Shown here: positions 4,223 through 5,969 of the stretch, in pieces
Layout of the letters: each line of letters begins with the position of its first letter
How positions within the stretch are numbered: the first letter of the stretch is position 1
DNA from: the human T2T-CHM13v2.0 reference genome, Homo sapiens
Length of the DNA stretch: 64,000 nt
Direction: 5' to 3' (one strand)
NCBI RefSeq assembly: GCF_009914755.1
Contig: NC_060930.1
Notes under the pieces: model-generated
Told to the model about the DNA's origin: nothing
Databases searched by the model: none
The model's input: only the letters and a program-made list of their open reading frames with translations
Translations under genes and position numbers: made by a program

Positions 4223-4255
<33 letters not shown>
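4223..4255. repeat. (TG)n microsatellite
   Basis: Direct reading. Confidence 0.95.
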
Positions 4256-4257
<2 letters not shown>

Positions 4258-4670
4258 GGATGAGGACATGTGTATATGTATCAAAATGTTTTGTTTCTGG
4301 CTTTTATTCTGGTTTCAGAGAAGTCTAAGTCTCTTCCCGATGTATACAGACTAGTGCTAAGATGTTTGAGACCTTAAAGATTTCAAGGCTATGCTATTTT
4401 GAGAGTTCATAAAAGATCAGTTCTTAAGACTTGTGCAATGAATATATTTAGGCAGTAGAAAACAGATATAGTTCTCTGTCGACATTTTATTTGAAGATCA
4501 CTATAATAGTTTTTCTAAGAATAGTAATAATAAAGCAATTTGGAGAGAATTAAATTATAAGCTATGTAAAATTGAAGTCTTTAAAAGGCCTATAATTTGA
4601 GAATTCCTTTTTTTTTTATTAACACCCTTGCAAGCAACCTCTCAAAAGCTCCCTTTACATCTTTGTTTCT
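4223..4670 (-). pseudogene. Relic second OR2B-type C-terminus and 3'UTR
   Basis: Minus strand 4670-4590 translates RNKDVKGAFERLLARVLIKKKGILKL*; the sequence after it aligns by eye to the OR2B6 3'UTR up to a CA repeat. Confidence 0.8.
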
Positions 4671-4712
4671 ATGTGTGTGTGTGTATGTATGTATGTGTGT
4701 GTGCGTGTGTGT
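4671..4712. repeat. Imperfect (TG)n/(TATG)n microsatellite
   Basis: Direct reading; equivalent in position to the (CA)n after OR2B6. Confidence 0.9.
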
Positions 4713-4895
4713 ATTACTGAAGAGATGATTTCTGGATCAGAAAGGTCTAGTTTACACTGAATTGTACAAACATTGATGTAAAGTGTGACAACCCTTGAAA
4801 ATGTTGTGATTACAGTTTTTGGTGCATTGGAAGGCCAATTCTGGGGGCTTGTTCAATGAAAATGTTTAGGCAACAGAAACAAATATAGCTTTTTG

Positions 4896-5969
4896 TCAAG
4901 GAAATTTTCTTTGAGGGAGATTACAATAGTTTTCTATAGTAATGACAAAAATAGGACAACTTGCGGAGAAGTTAGTAAGGTAAGTAAGCACTGTGTCTTT
5001 AGCAAAGCTTATCATTTGCATATTTCTTATTTCTTGATTAAGAAGACTCTTTGCAACCAACCTTTTAAAGGCTTCCTTTACCTCTTTGTTCCTAAGTGTA
5101 TATATAAGGGGATTCAGCATGGGTGCAATGATTCCACAGAAGAGAGAAACCATCTTTCCCCGGTCTTTGGAGCTGGGTGAAGGTGGTTGCAGGTACATGG
5201 AGATAGCTGTACCATAAAAAAGTGACACCACAATTAGATGGGAGCCACATGTCCCAAATGCCTTTCGTTGACCTTCAGCAGACTGGATTCTCAACACTGC
5301 TTGGACAATAAAAGCATACGATATAAGGATGAGTGTCACGGGTATTAGAAGGAATAGCACACTGATGAAGAATAGTTCAGCCTCATTTGCTGTTGTGTCA
5401 ACACAGGACAACTTGAGCAGAGCAGGGACTTCACAGAAGAAGTGATCCACTTCTTTGTGACCACACAGTGGCATCTTAAGTGTCCAGGTGGACTGTAATA
5501 CTGAATTGCTAAAGCCACTAATCCAGGATGCAGCTGCCAACTGGAAGCAGAGCCTCTGGTGCATGATAATTGAGTAATGGAGAGGCCGACAAATAGCTAC
5601 AAACCTATCAAAGCACATGACGGCCAGGAGAAGACATTCTGTGGAACCCAAGGCCAGGAAAATGAAAAGCTGGGCCACACAGCCACCATAACTGATTACT
5701 TTCCTGGTGTTGCATATGTTTACCAGCATTTGTGGAACTGTACTTGTGGTATAGCAAAGGTCCAGGAGTGAGAGATTGCTAAGAAAAAAGTACATAGGGG
5801 TGTGGAGTTTGAAATCCACATGTGACACAAGAATTATTGTCAGATTGCCAAAGATTGTCAAGATATAGGAAAACAGAAACATCACAAAGGGTGGAATCTC
5901 TAGCCATGGTTGATCTGAGAAAACTAACAGAATGAACTCCTGTGGGACACTCTTATTTACCCAATTCAT
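4896..5969 (-). CDS. OR2B2: Olfactory receptor family 2B, 357 aa, C-terminus extended by a frameshift
   Basis: Intronless 7TM ORF with [44 protein letters not shown] and N5 sequon NKS; sequence and length recognised as OR2B2. Confidence 0.95.
   Translation of the reverse strand: MNWVNKSVPQEFILLVFSDQPWLEIPPFVMFLFSYILTIFGNLTIILVSHVDFKLHTPMYFFLSNLSLLDLCYTTSTVPQMLVNICNTRKVISYGGCVAQLFIFLALGSTECLLLAVMCFDRFVAICRPLHYSIIMHQRLCFQLAAASWISGFSNSVLQSTWTLKMPLCGHKEVDHFFCEVPALLKLSCVDTTANEAELFFISVLFLLIPVTLILISYAFIVQAVLRIQSAEGQRKAFGTCGSHLIVVSLFYGTAISMYLQPPSPSSKDRGKMVSLFCGIIAPMLNPLIYTLRNKEVKEAFKRLVAKSLLNQEIRNMQMISFAKDTVLTYLTNFSASCPIFVITIENYCNLPQRKFP

What the first reader, a model, noticed from the sequence alone, without database searches (positions are those of the whole stretch)
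4223..5100. OR2B2 appears chimeric: a second, older OR C-terminus and 3'UTR lie just downstream of an OR2B6-like 3' end
Seen: directly after the (TG)n at 4671, the minus strand reads RNKDVKGAFERLLARVLIKKKGILKL* (4670-4590), paralogous to OR2B6 RNKEVKEGFKRLVARVFLIKK. The sequence after it aligns to the OR2B6 3'UTR up to a second CA repeat (4255-4223). Homology then continues into the OR2B6 downstream flank (about 4140-4070 vs 52250-52310; about 2810-2680 vs 53085-53205). The current OR2B2 3' end matches OR2B6 51791-51866 exactly except for one inserted base, including 33 nt beyond the OR2B6 stop. By eye, the relic is about as diverged from OR2B6 as the 5' flanks are. Inference: a gene-conversion tract copied from OR2B6 overwrote the OR2B2 3' end, ran to the CA repeat, and rejoined the original OR2B2 at the TACAC/ACAC microhomology of the YTLR codons. 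That would leave the ancestral tail as a tandem relic of about 430 bp. Alternative: a local tandem duplication followed by homogenisation with OR2B6.
Basis: partly seen in the sequence, partly recalled or inferred. Interest (0 to 1): 0.8.

Follow-up and report, generated by a model that had tools for sequence, protein, structure and literature searches.

The report
OR2B2 tail replaced, old tail kept
The human smell-receptor gene OR2B2 carries a 3' end copied from its neighbour OR2B6, and its own original tail still lies just downstream as a decayed fossil, so the direction and rough date of one gene-conversion event can be read directly.

Summary
On the minus strand, 4671-4223 is a second, decayed copy of an OR C-terminus, 3'UTR and CA repeat. 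It is 64.9% identical to OR2B6 51762-52191 (E 7e-14). It sits right after the current OR2B2 tail, 3'UTR and CA repeat (5095-4672), which is 87.5% identical to OR2B6.

Both flanks of the two inverted genes align collinearly at only 60-74%. The relic is therefore as old as the ancient duplication, and the current end is younger.

Named orthologue proteins settle the direction. Non-anthropoid OR2B2 has its own tail type. Old World monkey and human OR2B2 are OR2B2-type at 12 of 12 diagnostic residues (85-235) and OR2B6-type at 4 of 4 (257-299). The relic lacks one codon, as do only the four prosimian OR2B2 tails.

So an OR2B6 tract replaced the OR2B2 end after the tarsier split and before the monkey-ape split.

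Not resolved: whether one repair event did this (rejoining at ACAC, 5099-5096) or a tandem duplication came first and conversion followed.

This is a well-preserved example of known OR gene conversion, of moderate interest.

The parts
4896..5969 (-). OR2B2 coding sequence (357 codons), a chimera. Codons 1-235 are OR2B2-type. Codons 257 onward are OR2B6-type.
   Evidence: Translation. 18 diagnostic residues. N-part tree groups it with OR2B2 orthologues (SH-aLRT 100). C-part tree groups it with OR2B6 (97).
4714..5265 (-). OR2B6-derived tract in OR2B2. The upstream limit lies between 5265 (codon 235) and 5199 (codon 257), possibly up to 5438. The tract runs through the end of the coding sequence and the 3'UTR-like sequence to the first CA repeat.
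   Evidence: 67 differences in 553 columns against OR2B6 51596-52146. Near-neutral divergence from codon 236 to 4746 is about 0.12 (43 differences in about 357 sites, summed from the rows), against 0.45 in codons 1-110; Fisher p 7e-10. In the human genome only OR2B6 matches it through the UTR (90% over 520 nt).
5096..5099 (-). ACAC microhomology in codons T291/L292. This is the point where the relic copy begins relative to the current copy.
   Evidence: Read directly. The relic reads (CA)n-AT-AGA-AAC; the gene reads TACAC-TT-AGG-AAC.
5050..5052 (-). AAA run holding one extra A relative to OR2B6. The frameshift reads on into OR2B6-type 3'UTR sequence and gives the 357-aa human protein.
   Evidence: Old World monkey OR2B2 proteins are 313 aa (311 in Colobus) and end like OR2B6.
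4672..4713 (-). First, imperfect CA repeat (CA-A). It marks the end of the OR2B6-like unit and the junction with the relic.
4590..4671 (-). Relic of the ancestral OR2B2 C-terminal codons (from L292/R293). The original stop codon position now reads AAA.
   Evidence: Translation. D296 and G299 are non-OR2B6 states. The missing F codon is shared with 4 of 4 prosimian OR2B2. Alignment.
4256..4589 (-). Relic of the ancestral OR2B2 3'UTR. It keeps AATAAA at 4491, homologous to the OR2B6 hexamer at 51948.
   Evidence: Three-way alignment. It matches only the OR2B6 locus among 7 paralogue loci tested. Hexamers.
4223..4255 (-). Second CA repeat (CA-B). It is the positional counterpart of the OR2B6 CA repeat and is followed by the diverged shared flank.
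   Evidence: Flank collinearity.
51597..52190 (+). Donor-type region in OR2B6: codon 236 to the stop, the 3'UTR, and the (CA)n at 52148-52190.

Best explanation
OR2B2 and OR2B6 are an ancient inverted pair, head to head and 45 kb apart. Their neutral sequence has drifted to about 60-74% identity.

In an anthropoid ancestor, a break or stalled fork in OR2B2 near codons 257-291 was repaired using OR2B6 as template. This happened after the tarsier lineage split off and before Old World monkeys and apes split.

Inferred steps:
1. Pairing started in the strongly conserved TM6 block (codons 237-256).
2. Synthesis ran through the OR2B6 tail and 3'UTR into its (CA)n.
3. The tail and UTR of the two genes were already too diverged for normal homologous recapture. 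The new strand, ending in CA repeats, instead rejoined OR2B2 at the 4-nt ACAC of codons T291/L292.

The result overwrote about 100-170 nt of coding sequence. It also inserted about 424 nt (OR2B6 tail, UTR and CA repeat) in front of the untouched ancestral tail, UTR and CA repeat. The ancestral copy has since decayed as a relic.

Later, in the ape or human lineage, one extra A in the converted tail shifted the frame. This extended the protein by 52 residues in the shifted frame (a net 44) read from OR2B6-type 3'UTR.

Shown: the chimeric structure, the direction OR2B6 to OR2B2, the relic's identity, and the date bracket (about 0.9 confidence for these). Inferred: that it was a single event, and the repair pathway. 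The confidence given here is for the whole statement including the single-event mechanism.
For: Tandem structure and identities:
- Unit A against OR2B6: 343 of 392 identical.
- Unit A against the relic: 245 of 379.
- Relic against OR2B6: 242 of 381.
- Informative sites: A=B6 106, A=relic 21, relic=B6 17.

Age of the background. Collinear flank chains on both sides run at 60-74% identity. JC distance is 0.17 for UTR-A against OR2B6, about 0.50 for the relic, and 0.38-0.53 for the flanks.

Synonymous and non-coding divergence is mosaic: 0.45 in codons 1-110, about 0.12 from codon 236 to 4746 (43 differences in about 357 sites, summed from the rows), Fisher p 7e-10.

Orthologue proteins. 16 non-anthropoid OR2B2 and 11 non-anthropoid OR2B6 define 18 diagnostic sites. 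Human and 6 Old World monkey OR2B2 are B2-type at 12 of 12 sites (85-235) and B6-type at 4 of 4 (257, 282, 296, 299).

Survey of 111 rows: 68 pure B2, 26 pure B6, 16 with a B2 front and B6 end, 1 mixed, 0 the reverse.

Trees. The N-part places catarrhine OR2B2 with OR2B2 (SH-aLRT 100). The C-part places it with OR2B6 (97).

The relic lacks the F codon, as in 4 of 4 prosimian OR2B2 and 0 of 12 other reference OR2B2.

OR2B6 is the only human locus that matches the tract through the UTR.

For a single event: the inserted unit ends exactly in the donor's CA repeat. The junction shows ACAC microhomology. The upstream limit falls in a block that is identical at protein level in all orthologues.
Against: - Nothing here separates one step from two. 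A microhomology-mediated tandem duplication followed by conversion gives the same end product.
- A strand ending in (CA)n could have annealed to the original CA repeat 430 nt further on. That would have given a clean replacement, so the ACAC capture needs a special reason.
- The AU test on the 66-column C-part did not reject catarrhine OR2B2 grouping with OR2B2 (p 0.40).
- Whole-tail identity of the relic discriminates poorly: 16-18 of 20 with prosimian OR2B2 against 12-17 of 20 with OR2B6.
- D296 and G299 are ancestral states.
- The last ~35 nt before CA-A are 43% diverged from OR2B6. They align about as well to relic sequence as to OR2B6, which could mean the converted tract stopped short of the repeat.
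- Codons 178-235 have low synonymous divergence (0.20) yet keep B2-type residues at 178, 207 and 235. This is unexplained.
- The F-codon loss also occurs in one hyena OR2B6, so it can recur.
Confidence: 0.5

Rival explanations
1. Two steps. First, a microhomology-mediated tandem duplication within primate OR2B2. It joined the CA repeat to ACAC of codons 291/292 and made two OR2B2-type tail-UTR-CA units. Later, ordinary gene conversion from OR2B6 overwrote the end of the coding sequence and the first unit.
For: - It gives the same final structure and the same junction microhomology.
- Conversion between these two genes is clearly recurrent. There is a second low-divergence patch at codons 111-150 (1 synonymous difference in 26.8 sites). 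There is also a nested near-identical stretch at 5159-4994.
- Independent front-B2/end-B6 chimeras occur in monk seal, and two of the three unnamed chimeric records (P0023, P0029) differ in pattern from the catarrhine ones.
- A conversion tract would naturally stop at CA-A, because homology with OR2B6 ends there.
- The last ~35 nt before CA-A are poorly OR2B6-like.
Against: It needs two events whose limits coincide, where one event would do. No un-overwritten OR2B2-type patch in unit A could be shown: A=relic 21 sites against relic=B6 17 sites, with no excess.
Confidence: 0.35
2. An old tandem duplication and no conversion. The tail unit duplicated around or before the OR2B2/OR2B6 split. The in-gene copy stayed similar to OR2B6 through purifying selection, while the distal copy decayed neutrally.
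For: The three-sequence distances alone cannot separate a long relic branch from a true outgroup position. The informative counts A=relic 21 and relic=B6 17 are nearly equal.
Against: - Prosimian and non-primate OR2B2 proteins have the OR2B2-type tail, while catarrhine OR2B2 has the OR2B6-derived states S257, A282, E296 and E299. The in-gene tail therefore changed type within primates.
- Sequence at 85-90% identity continues about 180 nt past the OR2B6 AATAAA, where constraint on the mRNA is unlikely.
- The relic shares the primate-specific codon loss.
Confidence: 0.03
3. Chance similarity, a dispersed repeat, or an assembly artefact.
For: None found.
Against: - E 6.9e-14 and a score about 57 SD above shuffles.
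- The relic matches only itself in a whole-genome search.
- Among 7 paralogue loci it matches only OR2B6.
- At 65% identity it cannot be a collapsed or duplicated assembly segment.
Confidence: 0.01

Closest known systems
Interlocus (ectopic) gene conversion between olfactory receptor paralogues in primates. General knowledge, recalled; the only statement seen here is the background sentence in PMC7055050 (passage).
   Same: Non-reciprocal copying of a few hundred nt between clustered paralogues. It produces a mosaic gene, a patch of low synonymous divergence, and conflicting trees for the two parts.
   Different: The copy did not cleanly replace its target. About 424 nt were added, and the replaced tail survives next to the new one. 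Direction and age can therefore be read from a single genome.
Synthesis-dependent repair resolved by microhomology-mediated (polymerase-theta type) end joining, giving templated insertions or tandem duplications. Recalled; for PMC8654963 and PMC7407515 only the search listing and abstracts were seen.
   Same: One end shows homology-driven copying and the other a 4-nt microhomology junction. The product looks like a tandem duplication.
   Different: The template is a homeologous inverted paralogue 45 kb away, not the sister chromatid. The pathway is inferred from the footprint only.
Microhomology-mediated tandem duplication
   Same: Head-to-tail units of about 420-450 nt joined at ACAC/(CA)n.
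   Different: The two units are not each other's closest relatives. Unit A is 87.5% identical to OR2B6 and 64.6% to the relic, so a duplication alone is not enough.

Membership tests
Interlocus gene conversion tract | Near-neutral divergence inside the tract is clearly lower than in the adjoining homologous sequence. | tested here: met
   About 0.12 from codon 236 to 4746 (43 differences in about 357 sites, summed from the rows) against 0.45 in codons 1-110, Fisher p 7e-10. Flanks are 60-74% identical and the relic 64-65%.
Interlocus gene conversion tract | Phylogenetic conflict: the tract groups with the donor's orthologues, and the rest groups with the gene's own orthologues. | tested here: met
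   12 of 12 B2-type sites, then 4 of 4 B6-type sites. N-part split SH-aLRT 100. C-part split 97. However, the AU test on the C-part did not reject the alternative (p 0.40).
Interlocus gene conversion tract | Non-reciprocal: the donor keeps its own sequence. | tested here: met
   Human and bonobo OR2B6 are B6-type at all 4 tail sites. 0 of 111 surveyed rows have a B6 front with a B2 end.
Interlocus gene conversion tract | Length-neutral replacement of the homologous segment. | tested here: not met
   The ancestral tail, UTR and CA repeat remain at 4671-4223, a net gain of about 424 nt.
Simple tandem duplication | The two copies are each other's closest relatives. | tested here: not met
   Unit A against the relic is 64.6%; unit A against OR2B6 is 87.5%.
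Simple tandem duplication | Head-to-tail copies with a defined junction. | tested here: met
   Units 5095-4672 and 4671-4223. The junction is (CA)n/ACAC.
Olfactory receptor family 2 subfamily B | 7TM odorant receptor domain and orthology with named OR2B2 proteins. | tested here: met
   Precomputed Pfam PF13853 and PF00001 on the identical protein P0001. Named OR2B2 orthologues are at 82-94% identity.

The most novel reading that the evidence does not exclude
A single homeologous repair event is preserved as a fossil. Synthesis templated on an inverted paralogue 45 kb away stopped in a (CA)n tract and was captured by a 4-nt microhomology. This made a working chimeric receptor and left the displaced tail beside it.

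The displaced tail may still serve the gene. Unit A has lost the AATAAA hexamer, while the relic keeps the homologous one at 4491. A later 1-nt insertion then turned donor-derived 3'UTR into 52 frame-shifted codons (a net 44 extra) in the human lineage.
Probability: 0.45. Interest if true: 0.45.

Novelty: new member of a known kind. Interest (0 to 1): 0.38.

Why it matters
Gene conversion among OR genes is usually inferred only from statistics, because the overwritten sequence is gone. Here the overwritten tail survives next to its replacement.

Donor, recipient, tract ends and a date bracket can therefore be read directly. The bracket is after the tarsier split and before the Old World monkey-ape split.

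The finding also explains two things:
- Catarrhine OR2B2 proteins end like OR2B6.
- Human OR2B2 is 357 aa rather than about 313 aa, because a frameshift inside the imported segment reads on into OR2B6-type 3'UTR.

Practical consequence: orthology calls and selection tests on OR2B2 and OR2B6 should treat codons from about 236 onward separately.

This is a tidy case study. It is not a new principle.

Tried and rejected
- Whole-gene conversion was rejected. The 85% identity over 6028-4672 first suggested that the whole gene was converted. Synonymous divergence is 0.45 in codons 1-110 and 0.79 in codons 151-177, so the 5' identity comes from protein constraint.
- cDNA-mediated conversion or mRNA-level constraint was rejected. 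The high-identity block continues about 180 nt beyond the OR2B6 AATAAA at 51948.
- Inversion by crossover between the inverted genes was rejected by reasoning. It would swap the ends without duplicating a tail.
- The last ~35-55 nt before CA-A were tested to decide one step against two. The alignments were too short and ambiguous: against OR2B6, 138 of 1000 shuffles reached the score; against the relic, 22 of 1000 did, but at a different offset.
- Whole-tail peptide identity of the relic to each orthologue group barely discriminates.
- New World monkey OR2B2 was not found. No named platyrrhine protein was among the 120 listed hits, so the event cannot be placed relative to the platyrrhine split.
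- Literature searches found no paper describing OR2B2/OR2B6 conversion. The only paper holding both a gene name and 'gene conversion' is an unrelated IBD study (listing only).
- The early MHC-linked OR cluster papers (Ehlers 2000 and Younger 2001, recalled; Volz 2003, seen as a reference) could not be read. One look-up failed. Those papers could already mention this.

Full report
**What is there**

Read on the minus strand, OR2B2 ends with codons Y290 T291 L292 R293 (TAT ACA CTT AGG, 5102-5091). A tail and a 3'UTR-like stretch follow, and then an imperfect CA repeat (about 4713-4672).

Directly after that repeat the sequence starts again at the equivalent of L292/R293. Positions 4670-4590 translate to RNKDVKGAFERLLARVLIKKKGILKL*. 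A second 3'UTR-like stretch follows, and then a pure CA repeat (4255-4223).

OR2B6 on the plus strand has a single such unit. It ends in (CA)n at 52148-52190.

blastn gives two alignments:
- 6028-4672 against 50832-52189: 85.4% over 1360 columns.
- 4676-4219 against 51762-52191: 64.9% over 470 columns, E 6.9e-14.

The relic alignment scores about 57 SD above shuffles. Three unrelated stretches score at shuffle level.

A whole-genome search with the relic finds only itself. Among seven OR paralogue loci it matches only OR2B6. It is therefore neither a dispersed repeat nor chance.

**Ages of the three copies**

In a three-way alignment:
- current unit A against OR2B6: 343 of 392 identical (87.5%);
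- unit A against the relic: 245 of 379 (64.6%);
- relic against OR2B6: 242 of 381 (63.5%).

Informative sites: A=B6 106, A=relic 21, relic=B6 17.

Sensitive blastn of the flanks shows collinear chains on both sides of the inverted pair.
- Upstream, 11516-6047 pairs with 45488-50807.
- Downstream, 3576-1556 pairs with 52515-54133.
- All blocks are at 60-74% identity.

The 342 nt right after CA-B align only marginally to the 324 nt after the OR2B6 repeat. 7 of 500 shuffles reach the score, which is above all 33 real-sequence controls. The spacing fits once the Alu at 3567-3880 is removed.

So the two genes belong to an old inverted duplication of at least about 10 kb. The relic is as diverged as that background, and unit A is much younger. 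JC distances are 0.17 for UTR-A against OR2B6, about 0.50 for the relic, and 0.38-0.53 for the flanks.

**Is the young part conversion or constraint?**

The 85% identity across the whole gene is misleading. Synonymous divergence is mosaic:

| Region | Synonymous or near-neutral divergence |
|---|---|
| Codons 1-110 | 0.45 |
| Codons 111-150 | 0.04 (1 of 26.8 sites) |
| Codons 151-177 | 0.79 |
| Codons 178-235 | 0.20 |
| Codons 236-305 | 0.18 |
| Non-coding stretch 5054-4746 | 0.11 |

The 3' tract differs from codons 1-110 with Fisher p 7e-10. High identity continues about 180 nt past the OR2B6 AATAAA. Constraint on the mRNA is therefore an unlikely cause.

**Orthologues give direction and date**

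The protein search returned many named mammalian OR2B2 and OR2B6 proteins (the best 120 of 7989 hits were listed).

From 16 non-anthropoid OR2B2 and 11 non-anthropoid OR2B6 I derived 18 diagnostic positions. For human OR2B2 and six Old World monkey OR2B2:
- 12 of 12 positions between 85 and 235 are OR2B2-type. The one exception is Colobus at 235.
- 4 of 4 positions (257, 282, 296, 299) are OR2B6-type.
- Position 44 is OR2B6-type, and position 25 is neither.

Human and bonobo OR2B6 are OR2B6-type throughout, except at 103 and 113.

I surveyed 111 rows: 109 of the 120 hits plus the two window proteins. 11 hits longer than 420 aa were dropped as fused models. The survey gave 68 pure OR2B2, 26 pure OR2B6, 16 with an OR2B2 front and OR2B6 end, 1 mixed, and 0 the reverse.

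The 16 chimeras break down as:
- 11 catarrhine rows, including the window's own protein and its identical database entry;
- 3 unnamed records;
- 2 monk seal isoforms.

Strepsirrhine and tarsier OR2B2 (4 of 4) have the OR2B2-type tail.

Trees agree. On residues 1-235, catarrhine OR2B2 sits with OR2B2 (SH-aLRT 100). On residues 240-305, it sits with OR2B6 against all 16 non-anthropoid OR2B2 (97). The AU test on those 66 columns does not reject the alternative (p 0.40), so the protein tree alone is not decisive.

**Identity of the relic**

The relic carries D296 and G299, the states of OR2B2 orthologues. These are ancestral states, since the OR2B8 locus has them too. They show only that the relic is not OR2B6-type.

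The derived marker is the loss of the F codon, giving ARVLIKK. This is shared with 4 of 4 prosimian OR2B2, 0 of 12 other reference OR2B2, and one hyena OR2B6. It ties the relic to the primate OR2B2 lineage and argues against a pre-placental tandem duplication.

Whole-tail identity is a weak discriminator: 16-18 of 20 against prosimian OR2B2, and 12-17 of 20 against OR2B6.

The relic's stop position now reads AAA, as expected for a decaying remnant.

**Mechanism**

The junction is clear. CA-A runs into AT-AGA-AAC, where the gene has TACAC-TT-AGG-AAC. The copies therefore meet at ACAC (5099-5096).

The upstream limit of the OR2B6-type tract lies between codon 235 (5265) and codon 257 (5199). This falls inside a block whose protein sequence is identical in all orthologues of both genes.

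My preferred reading (about 0.5) is one repair event:
1. Pairing in that conserved block.
2. Synthesis on OR2B6 through the tail and UTR into (CA)n.
3. Capture at ACAC, because the tails were too diverged for homologous annealing.

The rival reading (about 0.35) is a microhomology tandem duplication followed by ordinary conversion. It predicts the same product.

I could not separate the two. The only candidate signal is inconclusive: the last ~35 nt before CA-A are poorly OR2B6-like (p 0.43), but their alignments are ambiguous.

**Later layers**

A stretch at 5159-4994 has only 4 differences in 166 nt. A 170-column window with so few differences (6 in the best such window) arises with P 0.0002 under even spacing of the differences, although part of it is constrained coding sequence. 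It contains the extra A (5052-5050) that gives the 357-aa human protein. Old World monkey proteins are 313 aa, or 311 in Colobus.

**Novelty**

Six literature searches found nothing on OR2B2/OR2B6 conversion. The older cluster papers could not be read.

Gene conversion among ORs is well known. This is a new and unusually legible example of it.

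Noticed in passing
window 5639-5520 (OR2B2 codons 111-150) and 51222-51341 (OR2B6): There is a second patch of near-zero synonymous divergence: 1 difference in 26.8 synonymous sites, against 0.45 upstream. 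Human and bonobo OR2B6 carry the OR2B2-type residue at position 113, and also at 103. This suggests a separate conversion in the opposite direction, OR2B2 to OR2B6. The direction rests on one or two residues.
   Followed up: partly
window 5438-5265 (OR2B2 codons 178-235): Synonymous divergence is low (0.20; Fisher p 0.006 against codons 1-110). Yet residues 178, 207 and 235 remain OR2B2-type in catarrhines and OR2B6-type in OR2B6. This could be a patchy tract, an older exchange or chance. It is unexplained.
   Followed up: partly
window 4912-4907, 4491 and 51948: The AATAAA hexamer of the OR2B6 3'UTR (51948) is kept at the homologous place in the relic (4491). In the current OR2B2 unit it reads AAGAAA, and that unit has no AATAAA or ATTAAA at all. 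OR2B2 transcripts may run on into the relic. The RefSeq 3' end at 4835 has no canonical hexamer before it.
   Followed up: no
proteins P0077, P0099, P0120, P0029, P0023: OR2B2-front/OR2B6-end patterns also occur outside primates: two monk seal isoforms, a mixed giant panda model, and unnamed records. One unnamed record (P0029) has a tail identical to that of a named cat-family OR2B6-like protein (P0095). Exchange at the 3' end of this pair may be recurrent in mammals. Some of these are low-quality gene models.
   Followed up: no
window 11516-1556 and 45488-54133: OR2B2 and OR2B6 sit in an ancient inverted duplication of roughly 10 kb. Collinear blocks at 60-74% identity are interrupted by younger Alu-type insertions, for example 3574-3874 and 6210-6510.
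   Followed up: partly
proteins P0003, P0004, P0014: Three UniRef models for Old World monkeys splice from the OR2B2 tail into the peptide that humans read only because of the frameshift. These look like models projected from the human annotation. They show that unit A's UTR is present in monkeys, but they are probably not real proteins.
   Followed up: no
window 4335-4256: The relic holds about 40 extra nt before its CA repeat, with two CCAGAA motifs. One resembles unit A and the other resembles OR2B6. This may be a small internal duplication.
   Followed up: partly
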